Virus record (IMG/VR): IMGVR_UViG_3300027749_000044 | Length of the DNA stretch: 64,000 nt | From: a virus | Direction: 5' to 3' (one strand) | Part shown: in pieces, positions 17,635 to 50,585 of the stretch | How the letters are laid out: every line of letters begins with the position of its first letter | Numbering within the stretch: the first letter of the stretch is position 1 | Position numbers and translations under genes: made by a program | Notes under the pieces: generated by a model | Seen by the model: the letters and a program-made list of their open reading frames with translations, nothing else | What the model was told of the DNA's origin: nothing | The model's database searches: none

Positions 17635-17950
17635 AATGGTTGTAAACTAAACTATTAAAAGCTGGGCAACACGGGAGTGCGAATCTCCCCGCCTCCACCA
17701 AAGGTACACAGCCGCAACAGGTCTTGATGGGGCTATAAGCCAAAGTAGAGTGAAAGCCTCTACCTGTGTATCTTTGTTGGGGGCGAATAGAATCGACTGA
17801 CAGTTAGTAGATAGAATAGCAACTCGGGTAGTTCCGTTAATGACTAAAAACTGTAAATGTCGCAGCTAATGACAACACTGTGGAATTTGCTCTAGCAGCA
17901 TAATCTACACGGGCTTTGCAAGTTGAGCCTCGGAACAGAATCAACTTGCT
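17635..17950 (+). ncRNA. ssrA: circularly permuted two-piece tmRNA
   Basis: acceptor piece ends with T-arm + CGCCTCC-A-CCA at 17700; intervening hairpin 17701-17778; coding piece starts GGGGGCG at 17779 (G3:U70); tag AANDNTVEFALAA-stop at 17862-17903; 3' pseudoknot 17911-17949; 5' end approximate. Confidence 0.93.
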
Positions 17951-37436: not shown

Positions 37437-37817
37437 TTATTCCAAAAATCCTTGCCCGGTGGCGAATTTTCTCATAATTATGCCGGCGAGCGCATTGGCT
37501 TCGTTTTCATGGTCAGAACCGGTGACGCCAGATTCCGAGTGCAATTCATTGTTAAGATTTTGGCGATGGTGAACGAATTCGTGGGCCAAAGTCCTGAATG
37601 TATCCATAATATGCCGGCCTTTGGTCGAAATAGTAATGGTTTCATCCATAGGAGAATATTGACCGAATGTTGGAATCCGTCCAGGTAAATGCGAATCTGT
37701 TTTAATTATGATTTTAGGTACTGATTCCAAACCAAGTTCTTTTGCCGCAAATTTTGCGAATAAATCGATTTGCTCTTTTACTTTTTCTTCATTGAGATAA
37801 GAAAGATAAGATTTCAT
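37437..37817 (-). CDS. zincin-like metallopeptidase
   Basis: RTLAHEFVH and ENEA. Confidence 0.7.
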   Translation of the reverse strand: MKSYLSYLNEEKVKEQIDLFAKFAAKELGLESVPKIIIKTDSHLPGRIPTFGQYSPMDETITISTKGRHIMDTFRTLAHEFVHHRQNLNNELHSESGVTGSDHENEANALAGIIMRKFATGQGFLE

Positions 37818-38452
37818 TATTTTTGCCTTTGAACTGTTCTGATATGAGTTTCCCCAGTATCGTGGTTGTGATCCACATGATGAGCCACAAAATTTACATG
37901 TGGATGTTCATCTTTTAATGACAAAAACTTTTGAAGATTTTCGTGGGAGTCATCATATAGATGGACTTCCTTATATCCGTGTTTCTTAACTAAATCTGAT
38001 ACAATTTTTTTCTTAGTATCGGAGGGCCGGCCTGGATTATTACCGGCCCTCCGGACGTGGATTTTATTAATGTCTATACCATAACTTTTCATAAAATGAC
38101 CAAACTTTTCTTTCGAATCAAAGTCTGATCTAGCAGTCAATATTTCAGTCTTTCCGCCATTTCTATGTATCGCCTTCATTTTCGCTAACATTTTGCGAAT
38201 AGGACGAGCAGTCTTATGTAATTTTTCGGCGGATTTAAAATCAGAGAAGTCATAAGAATGACCGGGTTCTAATGTATGTGTATTGAATTCTTGATTAGTG
38301 AGCGATTGTACTTTTTTACCAGTTTCGTCTTTTACATGTATCTTTAATTTTTTAGGATCATGTGCAAACAGTGTTTCATCCATATCAAAAGCATGGAGAG
38401 TTTTGTGTTTTTTTTCTTCTTCGGATAGAAATATTGAATAAGAAAACATCAA
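37817..38452 (-). CDS. HAD-superfamily phosphatase
   Basis: FDMDETLF, ILTAR, K, LYDD. Confidence 0.8.
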   Translation of the reverse strand: MMFSYSIFLSEEEKKHKTLHAFDMDETLFAHDPKKLKIHVKDETGKKVQSLTNQEFNTHTLEPGHSYDFSDFKSAEKLHKTARPIRKMLAKMKAIHRNGGKTEILTARSDFDSKEKFGHFMKSYGIDINKIHVRRAGNNPGRPSDTKKKIVSDLVKKHGYKEVHLYDDSHENLQKFLSLKDEHPHVNFVAHHVDHNHDTGETHIRTVQRQK

Positions 38453-38638: not shown

Positions 38639-38714
38639 TGGTCTCCAGCCCTGGCGCTGCCCCAGGTTCACGGCCTTCCAAGGGCCGTAGTAATCTTGCC
38701 CTACTTCGCCAGAG
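38639..38714 (-). tRNA. tRNA-Pro(TGG), atypical T-loop
   Basis: C1:G72, A73, CCA; CGGCC-CT-TGG-AA-GGCCG; T-loop GGCAGCG. Confidence 0.8.
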
Positions 38715-39273
38715 ATGAATTATATTTAGTATATAGGTAATTATCTATAATAGGCTGAATTTCGTTTTTATATCTACTATGTACGTATTGATGGTGTGTT
38801 GGACATAAAGGCACTATATTTTCTGGTCTATTATCAGTATGATCTTCGTTTACATGATGGGCCGCAACAATTTTTGTTTCATCACAGACTAAACATTTTT
38901 TACCATGTTCCGAAAAACATATAGATTGGTAGTTATTTCCATTCCAGTTGCCATTTTTTGCACCCGATCTGAATAGTTTATTGGAACATGCATGTGAACA
39001 AGTTTCTGTATTTTTATAATACACGGTTGCACAAACAACACATTCTTTTCTATTTGCATCTAGAAAGGAAGGATTTAAATTACACGAATTAATATGTTTT
39101 TTAAAATTTCCTTTTGTAAATCCAGAACCACAAAACTCACAAAAAAACTTTGTATTATTGATAAAATCAAATCCACTTGATTGTCTATTTGGATTTAACT
39201 TGCAAAGTCTTTCATGATTTTTTATCGAATTTGTAGTATTACATTCCTTATTGCAATATATACATTTATACAT
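38701..39273 (-). CDS. HNH endonuclease with repeated Zn-finger modules
   Basis: CxxC repeats; AHHVNEDHTDNRPENIVPLCPTHH. Confidence 0.85.
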   Translation of the reverse strand: MYKCIYCNKECNTTNSIKNHERLCKLNPNRQSSGFDFINNTKFFCEFCGSGFTKGNFKKHINSCNLNPSFLDANRKECVVCATVYYKNTETCSHACSNKLFRSGAKNGNWNGNNYQSICFSEHGKKCLVCDETKIVAAHHVNEDHTDNRPENIVPLCPTHHQYVHSRYKNEIQPIIDNYLYTKYNSSLAK

Positions 39274-39462
39274 AGAGTTCTCCTTTTGGGTATTTATGTC
39301 CCGAAAGATTTACCCTACCTTAATTCTACGGCTGGCTGGTCTTTACATACCACCATTCAAATCACTGTCACCTGGCACCATCAGGTTCAAAGCCTGAGCT
39401 ACCGAATGGGGGTTGGCCACTCATTGGTGGGGTCCATTCTTGGTCGTGTTTCACCATTTTGC

Positions 39463-39602
39463 TTTTGGGGTAGGATTTGCACCTACGTTTTTCCAGTCGG
39501 AGTGTCCTGCCTTTTTAGACGACGGATCAATAGATCCGTCCAGTTGGCTACGCTGGCATTTTCTCCCGTCGGAACGTCCTCGGCTTTTTAGACGACCCAA
39601 AA
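39463..39602 (-). ncRNA. two-headed tRNA-like RNA
   Basis: two tandem D-arm/short-stem/T-arm modules with swapped acceptor and anticodon pairings; promoter at about 39625-39653. Confidence 0.7.
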
Positions 39603-39657
39603 TCTCTCGTTCAACTCATATTCTTATCTTACAGGATATATATAGATTGGCAAGTGG

Positions 39658-39990
39658 TTATTTTAGTTTTTCCGGATCAAAATGACCATAAAAAATTTGA
39701 GCGGGTTCTTCCTGGCTTTTGCCATTGTAAAAATAACACACCCAAAGGTCGCCGGTTTCTTCGCCTTCGCCTTTAAGCACAAATACCGTTTCGGGATATT
39801 TAAGGCTAAATGCCTTCATATCCTTGTGCCAATCATACCATTTTGTTTCGCTTTTGGAAGTTCCATCTTCTTCCAGAGCCCAAGTTGCATTTTCACAATC
39901 ACATAGGAGTTGCTCAATTACAGTTTCTGGCTCATAACTGGCCGTATTAGGTACGACCAGATCAAGTGAATATCTAGTATAATAACCCAT
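39658..39990 (-). CDS. conserved phage hypothetical protein
   Basis: MGYYT, KWYDW..DM..FS..YP, GEGEE.GDLW. Confidence 0.65.
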   Translation of the reverse strand: MGYYTRYSLDLVVPNTASYEPETVIEQLLCDCENATWALEEDGTSKSETKWYDWHKDMKAFSLKYPETVFVLKGEGEETGDLWVCYFYNGKSQEEPAQIFYGHFDPEKLK

Positions 39991-40730: not shown

Positions 40731-41387
40731 TTAGTCAGGTCCATTAAAACGAGGTGTGCCGTCTGAATAAAAACTAAGATCATTCTCAGATGGATTATCC
40801 CAATCGATAGTCATTCTGTTAATTGTCTTCGCAAGTTCTAGCAAACCAAAGGGGCAAGGCGTATATCCTCTACCTGAATACTTAGCCATTCTTTCCATTG
40901 ATCTTAGTGGAAAATAAAGTTTGTTAACCACCAATCTCTTCGACGCAATATCTTGCCAAAATCTATCATGACAATAGAATGTAGTGCCGTTATATGCACC
41001 ACACACAATGGTAAAATCAAATGTTTCGAAAATAGCGTTTGGATCTTCGGGTGCATAACGAAGAATAACTTGGACCTTACATCCGTTGATCCAAAAATTA
41101 ACAAAGTGTTCTGTCTCAAACGTACAATAACCAACTTCCTTTTTAAGGATTTCTACTACCTTGTGTGGTTCAGGTGAGAATAGATCATAATCATTGATTT
41201 TGGCTCCTGTTACGGCCGCAGTAATTGCACCGCCAGCAATCCAAAACAAAGGAGGCTTTTTTGTCGTTTCATATGAAGGATCGGTTACATCAACTTCTTC
41301 ATTTGAGTATCCAAGGAGTTCTTTAATTTCGGCAATTGTGGCATTGAGTTTAGCCATTGCCGGAATTTTATCTGTAATAATTTGCAT
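40731..41387 (-). CDS. nucleotidyltransferase-like protein
   Basis: IAGG...DYD, FDFT motifs of the pol-beta/CCA-adding type. Confidence 0.7.
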   Translation of the reverse strand: MQIITDKIPAMAKLNATIAEIKELLGYSNEEVDVTDPSYETTKKPPLFWIAGGAITAAVTGAKINDYDLFSPEPHKVVEILKKEVGYCTFETEHFVNFWINGCKVQVILRYAPEDPNAIFETFDFTIVCGAYNGTTFYCHDRFWQDIASKRLVVNKLYFPLRSMERMAKYSGRGYTPCPFGLLELAKTINRMTIDWDNPSENDLSFYSDGTPRFNGPD

Positions 41388-41842
41388 TAAAAGTTACCCT
41401 TTCCTTGTGCAACATCAAATACAAAGATACCATTTTCCACCCACATGTCAACCACTTTCTTGCGGTCATCAAAAGCCATGATAGGATCAAATCCATCTTT
41501 TCTCATTTGATCTAACATATCTTTCTTAATTTCTGTATCATCTCTGTAATCACCATCTTTGCGGAAGTAATAAGCAGAAAAATGTACATCAGGAAAATGT
41601 CGGTGTAGCCATCGCAAAGTAGCAGGCTTGTATTCTTCTGCCCTGCCTGTGCAAATAACCAAATCATAAATGCCAGTTTCTGACAATGCTTCGATTACCT
41701 TCGATACAGGAAGAATAAGAGGATCGCTTTCGATATCAGCAAAGAAAGCCTTCCAGTTTCTTGGTTTACTGGCTACCCAATGCTTCCTTCCGGAAGCATC
41801 CGCAATAGTTCCGTCAACGTCTACAATAATGGTTCTGTTCAT
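41387..41842 (-). CDS. polynucleotide 3'-phosphatase (PseT HAD domain only)
   Basis: DVDGT, CTGR, RDD..K, FDDR; no kinase domain. Confidence 0.85.
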   Translation of the reverse strand: MNRTIIVDVDGTIADASGRKHWVASKPRNWKAFFADIESDPLILPVSKVIEALSETGIYDLVICTGRAEEYKPATLRWLHRHFPDVHFSAYYFRKDGDYRDDTEIKKDMLDQMRKDGFDPIMAFDDRKKVVDMWVENGIFVFDVAQGKGNF

Positions 41843-50410: not shown

Positions 50411-50472
50411 GTACTATAATTATTTAGTAAATAATTGGCCACTCATTGCCCAAATGAGTATAATATATCCAA

Positions 50473-50585
50473 TGGATATAGCAGGATTTGAACCTACATT
50501 CTACCAAGTCTCGGCCAGCGAAAAGGAATCGAACCTTTACCTTCCTGATGGCAAATCATATTGCCATATTTCTATAAGATATCCA
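50473..50585 (-). ncRNA. tRNA-like RNA with two T-arms
   Basis: AAAGG-TTCGATT-CCTTT and GTAGG-TTCAAAT-CCTGC; TGGATAT/ATATCCA closing stem. Confidence 0.55.

What the first reader, a model, noticed from the sequence alone, without database searches (positions are those of the whole stretch)
39463..39602. Two-headed tRNA-like RNA: two elbows fused through their anticodon stems
Seen (minus). Module 1: TTTTGGG TC GTCT-AAAAAGCCGA-GGAC G TTCCG AC GGGAG AAAAT GCCAG-CGTAGCCAA-CTGGA CGGATC. Linker TATT. Module 2: GATCCG TC GTCT-AAAAAGGCA-GGAC A CTCCG AC TGGAA AAAC GTAGG-TGCAAAT-CCTAC CCCAAAA. Acceptor strands pair only across modules (TTTTGGG/CCCAAAA; CGGATC/GATCCG closed by a loop). Anticodon strands also pair better across modules (TTCCG/TGGAA; CTCC/GGAG). 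The result is a tRNA whose anticodon loop is replaced by a second, circularly permuted YrlA-like tRNA body, with its own promoter and no CCA. I do not recognise this as a described family; it could be a bivalent decoy or scaffold for elbow-binding proteins.
Basis: partly seen in the sequence, partly recalled or inferred. Interest (0 to 1): 0.85.

Follow-up and report, generated by a model that had tools for sequence, protein, structure and literature searches.

The report
Two-bodied, anticodon-less phage tRNA mimic
A freshwater T4-like phage encodes a conserved 140-base RNA built from two glutamate/glutamine-type tRNA bodies whose ends are swapped, so they can only fold together; it has no anticodon and cannot read codons, so it probably imitates a tRNA.

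Summary
On the minus strand, 39602-39463 is a 140-nt RNA made of two tRNA-like modules. Their acceptor strands pair only across modules, 7 bp and 6 bp, all Watson-Crick. The outer body has exact tRNA geometry, there is no anticodon loop, and CCA is not encoded.

One true homologue turned up, in the same position in a diverged relative (L133; the neighbouring protein is 61% identical). It keeps the fold through three compensatory pair changes, two of them in the swapped outer acceptor stem. The RNA is 79% identical, against 57% at third codon positions of the adjacent gene. Stems are better conserved than loops. It is therefore a selected, structured RNA and not a decayed pair of tRNA genes.

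Both D arms are of the tRNA-Glu type, and the outer acceptor starts with the Gln-type U1-A72 pair. The phage has no tRNA-Glu or tRNA-Gln of its own.

Two points are less secure. The cross-module "anticodon" helix is isoenergetic with two local mini-hairpins, and the inner T loop is not canonical.

There is no Rfam match, no Ro60 gene and no expression data. Function is inferred: a non-decoding tRNA(Glu/Gln) body mimic at the head of a tRNA operon.

Earlier notes of this scan report the same two-headed design on other phage DNA. I did not reproduce those cases. The closest annotated relatives in kind are T5 RNA2/RNA1, T4 species 1 RNA and YrlA.

The parts
39463..39602 (-). The 140-nt two-bodied tRNA-like RNA (RNA position i = window 39603-i)
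   Evidence: Sequence; fold; the model built on it scores 180.9 bits on itself and 110.2 bits on homologue L133:1430-1569; consensus fold.
39596..39602 (-). Outer acceptor, 5' strand (UUUUGGG; begins with U1 of the U1-A72-type pair)
   Evidence: Pairs with 39463-39469, 7 Watson-Crick bp. Two of the seven pairs change on both sides in L133.
39463..39469 (-). Outer acceptor, 3' strand (CCCAAAA), followed by G-CAA (no CCA)
39576..39593 (-). D arm 1 (GUCU-10 nt-GGAC), tRNA-Glu type with U11-A24 and U13-G22
   Evidence: Its 12-mer UCGUCUAAAAAG plus GGAC is identical to the D arm of a genuine phage tRNA-Glu(CUC), L098:3946-4023. The stem is invariant in L133.
39570..39574 (-). Outer 'anticodon-stem' 5' strand (UUCCG)
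   Evidence: Pairs with 39491-39495 (UGGAA), probability 0.70-0.96. One compensatory change and one break in L133. A local alternative is isoenergetic.
39491..39495 (-). Outer 'anticodon-stem' 3' strand (UGGAA), followed by the 4-nt variable region AAAC
39563..39566 (-). Inner 'anticodon-stem' 3' strand (GGAG)
   Evidence: Pairs with 39499-39502 (CUCC), probability about 0.9. Invariant in L133.
39499..39502 (-). Inner 'anticodon-stem' 5' strand (CUCC)
39539..39557 (-). Inner T-arm-like hairpin (GCCAG, 9-nt loop, CUGGA); the loop is not canonical
   Evidence: 4 bp here. In L133 the G-A mismatch becomes G-C, giving 5-6 bp. The loop core UA.CCA is conserved. Low pair probability in single-sequence folding.
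39523..39538 (-). Inner acceptor stem sealed by a loop (CGGAUC-UAUU-GAUCCG)
   Evidence: Pair probability above 0.99. The stem is identical in L133, while the loop grows from 4 to 8 nt.
39504..39520 (-). D arm 2 (GUCU-AAAAAGGCA-GGAC), tRNA-Glu type with GG in the loop
   Evidence: The stem is invariant in L133. Predicted only in the consensus fold.
39470..39486 (-). T arm 2 (GUAGG-UGCAAAU-CCUAC)
   Evidence: Pair probability above 0.98. The loop is the canonical UUCAAAU in L133.
39626..39653 (-). Sigma-70-like promoter (TTGCCA, 16 nt, TAAGAT). The sequence from just after the -10 box down to the RNA start at 39603 (about 24 nt) is identical in L133
   Evidence: Scan. L133 has TTGCCA-17-TAGAAT; promoter plus leader are 89% identical, and the last 24 nt are 100% identical.
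39330..39462 (-). Next structured element of the same non-coding cluster (carries a CAGG-CUUUGAA-CCUG hairpin)
   Evidence: Collinear with L133:1570-1691. Not part of the two-bodied RNA, which is closed by its own acceptor stem.
38701..39273 (-). HNH endonuclease gene inserted into the RNA cluster (not part of the RNA)
   Evidence: PHROG HNH families, E = 1.6e-7. The stretch 39330-38721 is absent from L133.

Best explanation
This is a functional, non-decoding RNA derived from tRNA(Glu/Gln)-type genes. It works as two tRNA bodies in a single chain.

Shown: the acceptor strands are swapped between the two modules, so the chain must fold as a whole. The D arm of module 1 is forced next to the T arm of module 2, which gives the outer body. 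The D arm of module 2 is forced next to the hairpin of module 1, which gives the inner body, sealed by a loop and in permuted order. No anticodon loop exists. The fold and sequence are under purifying selection.

Inferred, step by step:
1. It is transcribed from its own conserved sigma-70-like promoter as the first unit of a tRNA and tRNA-like operon.
2. RNase P cuts at U1 of the outer acceptor/T-arm stack.
3. The 3' end is trimmed and CCA may be added.
4. The mature RNA acts by mimicry. It presents the GluRS-type 'augmented D helix' (U11-A24, U13-G22, 4-nt variable region) twice, and a Gln-type U1-A72/G73 acceptor end once.
5. It therefore binds a protein that reads the tRNA(Glu/Gln) body rather than the anticodon. 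Candidates are non-discriminating GluRS, the amidotransferase, or a tRNA-directed host defence nuclease. Because there is no anticodon loop, it would be neither cleaved nor used in decoding.
For: Structure:
- All stems are present. MFE z = -3.2.
- The homologue L133:1430-1569 scores 110 bits, E = 3e-27, at the same genomic position behind the same promoter.
- 98.7% of pair cells are paired, with 3 compensatory pairs, 2 changes to G-U and 1 break.
- RNAalifold returns all eight helices on the model alignment. On an unbiased MAFFT alignment it returns the outer body plus both cross helices.

Selection:
- 114/144 columns are identical, against 57% identity at third codon positions of the adjacent gene (binomial p = 2e-8).
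- Paired columns are 88% identical and unpaired columns 68% (Fisher p = 0.004).
- The same phage in three other samples carries the identical RNA.

Origin and identity:
- The D arm is identical to that of a genuine phage tRNA-Glu.
- The phage encodes no tRNA-Glu or tRNA-Gln.

Context:
- The element sits among tRNA genes, two PNKP-like HAD proteins and a nucleotidyltransferase-like protein.

Precedents:
- mascRNA has no conserved anticodon loop, carries Glu determinants and binds GlnRS (PMC9976931).
- M. smegmatis YrlA is cut by RNase P and receives CCA (PMC4201824).
Against: - Only two distinct sequences are known, so covariation rests on three pairs.
- The shuffle control is weak: 54 of 500 shuffles reach the observed values.
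- The inner D arm 2 and the inner T-like hairpin are not favoured in single-sequence folding (probability below 0.02). An alternative inner helix, UGCC/GGCA, is predicted on the MAFFT alignment.
- The cross 'anticodon' helix is not clearly better than local mini-hairpins.
- GluRS needs the anticodon as a strong determinant (PMC9976931), so binding may be weak.
- No binding partner has been tested and no such partner is encoded beside the RNA.
Confidence: 0.55

Rival explanations
1. Two-piece RNA. RNase P also cuts inside the loop that seals the inner acceptor stem, 5' of G75. The 3' end of the first half is trimmed and receives CCA. The product is two half-molecules of about 70 nt held together by the swapped acceptor helices, with two free acceptor ends that might be charged. 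This would work like the two-piece tmRNA that the same phage encodes.
For: - The sealing loop is the only part that is free to change length (UAUU versus an 8-nt loop), while its stem is invariant. That is the behaviour expected of an excised or passive linker.
- M. smegmatis YrlA is cleaved by RNase P at its sealed acceptor stem and gets CCA in vivo (PMC4201824).
- The phage carries a permuted, two-piece tmRNA gene.
- A nucleotidyltransferase-like gene lies 1.1 kb upstream.
Against: - The inner acceptor has 6 bp, not 7. Chen et al. attribute RNase P cleavage of YrlA to a 7-bp stem.
- The inner T loop is not canonical.
- There are no aminoacylation identity elements that work without an anticodon, such as G3-U70.
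- There are no data on RNA ends.
Confidence: 0.15
2. Processing and stability element. The tRNA-like fold serves only as an RNase P / RNase Z landing site. It separates the upstream mRNA from the tRNA operon and protects the operon's 5' end. The excised RNA itself has no function.
For: - It is the first unit behind the promoter of a multi-RNA cluster.
- The 24-nt leader is even better conserved than the RNA.
- tRNA-like punctuation is established in other systems, for example mascRNA processing.
Against: - A single acceptor/T-arm minihelix would be enough for that role.
- Keeping two Glu-type D arms, the inner body and 39 base pairs is more than punctuation requires.
- The element has its own promoter directly upstream, so there is little upstream transcript to separate.
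Confidence: 0.15
3. Same sequence, different fold. The two 'anticodon' regions form local 3-4 bp mini-hairpins, giving an eight-way junction. Alternatively the RNA switches between the local and the cross form, and the two-headed dumbbell is not the functional state.
For: - With all arms forced, the energies are -38.8 (cross) against -38.1 (local) here, and -30.8 against -31.1 in L133.
- The MFE of L133 has the local hairpin, CUCC-GAACG-GGAG, with probability 0.99.
- The U29-to-C change improves the local pair and breaks the cross pair.
Against: - RNAalifold chooses the cross helices on both alignments.
- U30-A111 becomes C-G.
- Only the cross form closes two proper four-way junctions with native tRNA connectivity: 2-nt linker, residue 26, variable region.
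- The swapped acceptors already force the D1-T2 and D2-T1 neighbourhoods.
Confidence: 0.2
4. Non-functional relic. Recombination between neighbouring tRNA-Glu/Gln paralogues in a tRNA array visited by homing endonucleases produced reciprocal chimeric pseudogenes that merely happen to cross-pair.
For: - Tandem tRNA-Gln paralogues with similar acceptor stems give the same descriptor signal (L031:12098-12294).
- An HNH gene has inserted 190 nt downstream.
- The family is confined to a narrow clade.
Against: - The RNA is 79% identical between phages whose adjacent gene is 57% identical at third codon positions (p = 2e-8).
- Changes in stems are compensatory or to G-U.
- Stems are significantly more conserved than loops.
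- The promoter is conserved.
Confidence: 0.05

Closest known systems
YrlA (Y RNA-like A, Rfam RF02553; Chen et al. 2014, PMC4201824)
   Same: - It has an anticodon-less tRNA-like domain in permuted order: T arm, acceptor stem sealed by a loop, then D arm. This is the order of the inner module here.
- It occurs in bacteria and phages.
- The mycobacterial form is cut by RNase P and receives CCA.
   Different: - YrlA's open end is a Ro60-binding helix with a conserved GNCGAA motif, and it lies beside a Ro60/TROVE gene.
- Here the open end runs into a second, complete tRNA body. There is no such motif, no TROVE gene in the complete phage, and no RF02553 match at E up to 10.
Phage T5 RNA2 and RNA1 ('tRNA-like stable RNA with unknown functions', NC_005859)
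   Same: - They lie in a phage tRNA cluster among HNH genes.
- They have a full tRNA outer body whose anticodon loop is replaced by an extended stem carrying extra structure. In RNA2 that structure is a second T-arm hairpin.
- Function is unknown.
- T5 RNA2 aligns end to end to my model at 21 bits, E = 0.005.
   Different: - The T5 inserts are a stem plus one hairpin, not a complete permuted tRNA with a sealed acceptor and its own D arm.
- There are no swapped acceptor strands and no Glu-type D arms.
- There is no detectable sequence homology.
Phage T4 species 1 RNA (rnaC) and species 2 RNA (rnaD), NC_000866
   Same: They are small stable RNAs of 139 and 119 nt at the end of the tRNA cluster of a T4-type phage. 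They have a tRNA-like acceptor/T arm and no known function.
   Different: The architecture is different, with long hairpins in place of the D and anticodon arms. My models give no match to them.
mascRNA (tRNA-like RNA cut from MALAT1)
   Same: It is a tRNA-like cloverleaf without a conserved anticodon loop. It carries tRNA-Glu determinants, is not aminoacylated, and binds and stabilises GlnRS (PMC9976931). This is a working precedent for a Glu/Gln-type body mimic.
   Different: It is eukaryotic, has a single body of 58 nt, and is unrelated in sequence and origin.
'Two-headed tRNA mimics' noted earlier in this scan on other phage genomes (e.g. e1-5322502, e1-5643330, e1-5666371, e1-5706712)
   Same: According to those notes, the design is the same: a normal tRNA body with a permuted tRNA body where the anticodon loop should be, conserved by compensatory changes, and absent from Rfam and from the papers searched.
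   Different: - Those cases are Val-, Gly-, Leu-, Ala- or Arg-type, and mostly in giant (jumbo) phages. This one is Glu/Gln-type, in a 151-kb T4-like freshwater phage.
- I could not see their sequences. My Glu-type model found none in phiKZ, Serratia phage BF, Ochrobactrum phage OC, RHph_TM30 or T5.

Membership tests
tRNA (Rfam RF00005) | Score at or above the 29-bit gathering cut-off; called by a tRNA finder | tested here: not met
   Only module 2 matches, at 17.0 bits, E = 1.1; 24.9 bits in L133. ARAGORN calls nothing at this locus.
tRNA (Rfam RF00005) | Seven-nucleotide anticodon loop closing a 5-bp anticodon stem | tested here: not met
   Neither module has one. The strands UUCCG-AC-GGGAG and CUCCG-AC-UGGAA leave at most a 4-nt loop.
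YrlA (Rfam RF02553) | Covariance-model match | tested here: not met
   There is no RF02553 hit at E up to 10 on 39150-39750, nor at the gathering threshold on the whole window.
YrlA (Rfam RF02553) | Ro60/TROVE gene in the genome, usually adjacent | tested here: not met
   PF05731 finds nothing in the complete 151-kb phage, while the positive controls give hits.
YrlA (Rfam RF02553) | Permuted tRNA-like domain: T arm, loop-sealed acceptor stem, D arm | tested here: met
   The inner module 39557-39504 has this order. The T loop is non-canonical.
YrlA (Rfam RF02553) | Ro-binding helix with the conserved GNCGAA(N)G motif at the open end (PMC4201824) | tested here: not met
   The motif is absent from the 140 nt. 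The open end is the helix that leads into the outer tRNA body.
T5 RNA2-type tRNA-like stable RNAs | tRNA outer body in a phage tRNA cluster, with the anticodon loop replaced by a structured insert | tested here: met
   Descriptor hit; fold; T5 RNA2 fold for comparison.
T5 RNA2-type tRNA-like stable RNAs | Sequence or model homology to T5 RNA2 | tested here: inconclusive
   R2 aligns T5 RNA2 full length at only 21.2 bits, E = 0.005. R1 does not find it.
GOLLD RNA (reading of the same stretch in another first-stage note) | Match to the Rfam GOLLD model | tested here: not met
   No GOLLD hit at E up to 10. The 140-nt RNA is closed by its own acceptor stem and is a separate unit.
Two-piece (permuted) tmRNA | Alanine-type acceptor (G3-U70), tag reading frame, pseudoknots | tested here: not met
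   The acceptor pairs are U3-A and U3-A70-type. There is no tag frame. The phage's real permuted tmRNA is at 17638-17903.
Two-headed tRNA mimics (class noted only inside this scan) | Canonical outer tRNA body, permuted inner tRNA body, no anticodon, pairs kept by compensatory change | tested here: met
   That the class exists on other DNA rests on earlier notes that I did not verify.

The most novel reading that the evidence does not exclude
The RNA is one member of a general, undescribed class of phage 'two-headed' tRNA mimics. In this class two tRNA bodies are joined where the anticodons would be. The result is an uncleavable, non-decoding, bivalent ligand for proteins that recognise a particular tRNA by its body. 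Here the body is tRNA-Glu/Gln, so candidate ligands are non-discriminating GluRS, the GatCAB transamidosome, or a tRNA-Glu/Gln-directed defence nuclease. Phages would use such RNAs to blunt tRNA-targeting immunity or to retune charging.
Probability: 0.25. Interest if true: 0.85.

Novelty: new variant of a known kind. Interest (0 to 1): 0.68.

Why it matters
Phage tRNA clusters have long been known to carry stable, anticodon-less tRNA-like RNAs, such as T4 species 1/2 and T5 RNA1/RNA2. Their function has stayed unknown for decades.

This element is a particularly clean case. It has two complete tRNA-type bodies in one chain with swapped acceptor strands. It is demonstrably under selection. It also keeps the body determinants of one specific tRNA identity (Glu/Gln) that the phage does not otherwise encode. 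That gives a concrete hypothesis to test: which Glu/Gln-tRNA-binding protein does it bind?

If the design is as widespread as earlier notes of this scan suggest, it would be a new class of RNA mimicry in the conflict between phages and tRNA-directed host defences. It would also add a new natural topology to the known repertoire of tRNA folds.

Tried and rejected
Searches for further homologues that found nothing:
- Exact-motif scans: viral contigs with 22, 20 and 27 specified bases, and metagenome contigs with 20 specified bases. All gave 0 hits.
- A 16-base D-arm motif in viral contigs gave 20 loci. Only one of them (three identical copies) is a genuine tRNA-Glu; the rest are chance matches.
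- Model R1 on 92 + 20 + 14 loci and on 50 whole related IMG/VR records hit only ordinary tRNAs.
- Relatives of the upstream protein at 66% identity or less (L002-L009, L115-L128, L130-L132, L135-L137, L141-L146) lack the RNA. One has a plain terminator there instead.
- Contigs reached through the 65-aa neighbouring gene were too short.
- Two contigs that probably hold further copies had no DNA on file.

Expression and population variants:
- No RNA run is listed as holding the stretch. Three freshwater DNA runs hold the identical sequence with no variants.

Readings considered and rejected:
- Homology to T4 rnaC/rnaD: different architecture and no model match.
- GOLLD-like reading: no Rfam support.
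- Intron-containing tRNA: removing the insert leaves a 5-nt loop, not an anticodon loop.
- Ro60 partner: none in the genome.
- The same design in five cultured phages (phiKZ, Serratia BF, Ochrobactrum OC, RHph_TM30, T5): model R2 found none. The 115-nt hit in Serratia phage BF is a tRNA-Glu-like gene with a 42-nt insert, not a second body.
- L031:12098-12294 from my relaxed descriptor is simply two tandem tRNA-Gln genes.

Papers:
- The searches, and the papers read, describe no two-bodied tRNA mimic.

Full report
WHAT IS THERE. The window is part of a complete 151,248-bp IMG/VR phage record with terminal repeats. The source is freshwater. The phage carries T4-type genes, ten tRNA genes and a permuted tmRNA. 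Between a 110-aa gene (39658-39990, minus) and an HNH gene (38701-39273, minus) lies 385 nt of non-coding DNA.

- a 7-bp outer acceptor stem, positions 1-7 with 134-140;
- D arm 1, positions 10-27;
- a 5-bp helix, 29-33 with 108-112;
- a 4-bp helix, 37-40 with 101-104;
- a hairpin, 46-64;
- a perfect 6-bp hairpin, 65-80;
- D arm 2, 83-99;
- T arm 2, 117-133.

The outer body has the spacing of a real tRNA: 7 bp, 2 nt, a 4-bp D stem, 1 nt, 5 bp, then a 4-nt variable region, a 5-7-5 T arm and 7 bp. Neither 5' acceptor strand can pair with the 3' strand of its own module.

IS IT MORE THAN CHANCE? Free-energy folding gives -45.8 kcal/mol with z = -3.2. It recovers the outer body, both cross-module helices and the central hairpin with high pair probabilities. 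It does not recover the inner D arm or the inner T-like hairpin. A strict descriptor of my own for a tRNA body with a large insert in the anticodon loop found only this element and one other locus in 1.5 Mb scanned on both strands. Thirteen consecutive Watson-Crick pairs at exactly the acceptor positions are not expected by chance.

HOMOLOGUE AND SELECTION. Direct motif scans and model searches of related phage contigs found nothing. The route that worked went through the neighbouring protein:
- Its 61%-identical relative P0005 lies on two ENA contigs, L133 and L134.
- Directly downstream of that gene, behind the same promoter and leader, sits a 140-nt RNA that scores 110 bits, E = 3e-27.

Compared with the window copy, this homologue shows the following differences:
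- The outer acceptor changes U4-A137 to C-G and G5-C136 to A-U.
- The outer 'anticodon' helix changes U30-A111 to C-G and loses one pair.
- In the inner hairpin a G-A mismatch becomes G-C, and G-C becomes G-U.
- The sealed stem is identical, while its loop grows from 4 to 8 nt.
- A possible D-loop 2 to hairpin-loop contact changes from GGC/GCC to GGU/ACC. I read this directly from the alignment. It is weak evidence.

Overall, 98.7% of pair cells are standard pairs, against 31-63% when partners are slid by 1-3 columns. RNAalifold predicts all eight helices on the model-based alignment. On an unbiased MAFFT alignment it predicts the outer body plus both cross helices.

The two phages are far apart. 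The adjacent gene is 61% identical in protein and 57% identical at third codon positions. The RNA is 79% identical (p = 2e-8). Its paired columns are 88% identical and its unpaired columns 68% (Fisher p = 0.004). For comparison, the bona fide tRNA-Leu next door is 88% identical. Three other samples hold the identical RNA. The element is therefore under purifying selection for its structure, and the pseudogene-relic reading is disfavoured.

WHAT IT IS MADE FROM. When the insert is skipped, the best matches of my model elsewhere are ordinary tRNAs. The top one is a phage tRNA-Glu(CUC), whose D arm carries the same 12-mer and GGAC. A tRNA-Gln comes second.

Both D arms keep U11-A24 and U13-G22, and the variable regions are 4-5 nt long. 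These are the 'augmented D helix' determinants of tRNA-Glu. The outer acceptor begins with U1-A72, the mark of tRNA-Gln used by GluRS2 and the amidotransferases (PMC9976931). It ends with discriminator G followed by CAA. The phage has no tRNA-Glu or tRNA-Gln gene.

WHAT REMAINS UNCERTAIN IN THE FOLD. The swapped acceptors are secure. Through the conserved 2-nt UC linkers they force D arm 1 next to T arm 2 and D arm 2 next to the inner hairpin.

The helix joining the two bodies is less secure. With all arms imposed, cross pairing and two local 3-4 bp mini-hairpins differ by less than 1 kcal/mol in both sequences. The homologue's MFE chooses the local hairpin, and one substitution favours that local pairing. 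Consensus folding, one compensatory pair and the native four-way-junction connectivity favour the cross form. The inner hairpin loop (core UA.CCA) is not a canonical T loop. An alternative inner helix, UGCC/GGCA, is possible.

CONTEXT.
- A sigma-70-like promoter (TTGCCA-16-TAAGAT) lies upstream, and the 24-nt leader is identical in both phages.
- The RNA heads a cluster of tRNA-like elements that is collinear with L133. Here that cluster is split by an inserted HNH gene.
- The flanking genes include two PNKP-type HAD proteins and a nucleotidyltransferase-like protein, a setting typical of tRNA repair.
- There is no Ro60/TROVE gene.

COMPARISON WITH KNOWN FAMILIES. No Rfam family matches.
- YrlA shares the permuted inner topology, but its model, its Ro60 partner and its Ro-binding motif are all absent here.
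- T5 RNA1/RNA2 and T4 species 1/2 are annotated anticodon-less tRNA-like stable RNAs of unknown function. T5 RNA2 carries a second T-arm knob but not a second complete body. It aligns to my model only weakly, at 21 bits.
- The papers I searched describe single-bodied mimics only.
- Earlier notes of this scan report the same two-headed design, with other tRNA identities, in many giant phages. I treat these notes as leads. My Glu-type model found no such RNA in five cultured phages.

MECHANISM. Shown: a conserved, structured RNA with two bodies and no anticodon. Inferred: transcription from its own promoter, RNase P maturation at the outer acceptor, and action as a tRNA(Glu/Gln) body mimic that cannot be decoded or cut in an anticodon loop. 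mascRNA-GlnRS is a working precedent.

The rivals are set out in the fields above:
- a two-piece product after RNase P cleavage of the sealing loop;
- a pure processing element;
- a local-hairpin or switching fold;
- a relic of tRNA-gene recombination.

VERDICT. This is a real and unusual structured RNA. I rate it as a new variant of the known kind 'phage tRNA-like stable RNA'.

Noticed in passing
window 38721-39330 (HNH ORF 38701-39273, minus): The HNH endonuclease gene and its short upstream region are an insertion. L133 runs straight from the equivalent of 39330 to the equivalent of 38721. The last 14 nt of the gene overlap the next tRNA-like gene.
   Followed up: partly
window 38639-38714 (minus): This is a tRNA-Pro(UGG)-like gene with G8, a non-canonical T loop (GGCAGCG) and an encoded CCA. 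It is 100% identical over about 80 nt to L133, although the flanks are about 80% identical. Neither ARAGORN nor Rfam calls it, even at E up to 1.
   Followed up: partly
window 39330-39462 (minus): This is the second element of the cluster. It contains a hairpin with a tRNA-Gln-like anticodon loop, CAGG-CUUUGAA-CCUG. In L133 the pair below the stem changes from U-A to C-G. Here an 18-nt insert sits in an adjacent hairpin loop.
   Followed up: partly
window 39413-39425 and 50435-50447 (minus): The 13-mer AATGAGTGGCCAA occurs exactly twice in the 151-kb genome, each time 25-40 nt downstream of a tRNA-like RNA. In a relative (L142:860-885) the related CCCCAC-CAATGA-GTGGGG plus a T run is an intrinsic terminator.
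   Followed up: partly
window 50473-50585 (minus): This is a 113-nt element closed by UGGAUAU/AUAUCCA, with two canonical T arms and no anticodon arm. It scores 22 bits on the Rfam tRNA model, below threshold. It is a different anticodon-less tRNA-like RNA in the main tRNA array.
   Followed up: partly
window 39603-39626 (minus): The 24-nt leader between the -10 box and the RNA is identical in both phages, so it is better conserved than the RNA itself. It contains a two-codon frame, AUG-AGU-UGA. No explanation so far.
   Followed up: no
L002:240-373: A distantly related phage contig (the relative of the neighbouring protein there is 45% identical) has a 134-nt RNA candidate. It is a perfect tRNA outer body with a 68-nt insert in place of the anticodon loop. 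The insert contains GGGAG...CUCC, a D-like hairpin and a UGCAAAU loop. The fold z-score is not significant, and no homologues were sought.
   Followed up: partly
L153:1501-1615 (Serratia phage BF, NC_041917 294918-295032): This is a tRNA-Glu-like gene with a classical Glu D arm and T arm, but with about 42 extra nt between residue 26 and a UUC-anticodon-like loop. It may be an interrupted or insert-bearing tRNA-Glu in a cultured jumbo phage.
   Followed up: partly
window 40731-41387, 41387-41842 and 37817-38452 (minus): The RNA cluster is flanked by a nucleotidyltransferase-like protein and two PNKP-type HAD phosphatase-like proteins. JGI's stored Pfam hit calls the first protein Gad2; my hmmscan did not reproduce that. 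This is an RNA-repair-like setting.
   Followed up: partly
L150:3138-5895 (Rhizobium phage RHph_TM30): A cultured T4-like rhizobiophage has a TROVE (Ro60) gene beside a tRNA-Leu gene, followed by a 1.2-kb gene-free stretch. This is the classical setting for a phage YrlA, and it is absent from the phage studied here.
   Followed up: no
own genome G000:C1:9457-9528 (outside the window): There is a sub-threshold tRNA-like gene (27.4 bits) with an AAAAAG D loop like that of the two-bodied RNA, and a 9-nt loop containing UUG.
   Followed up: no
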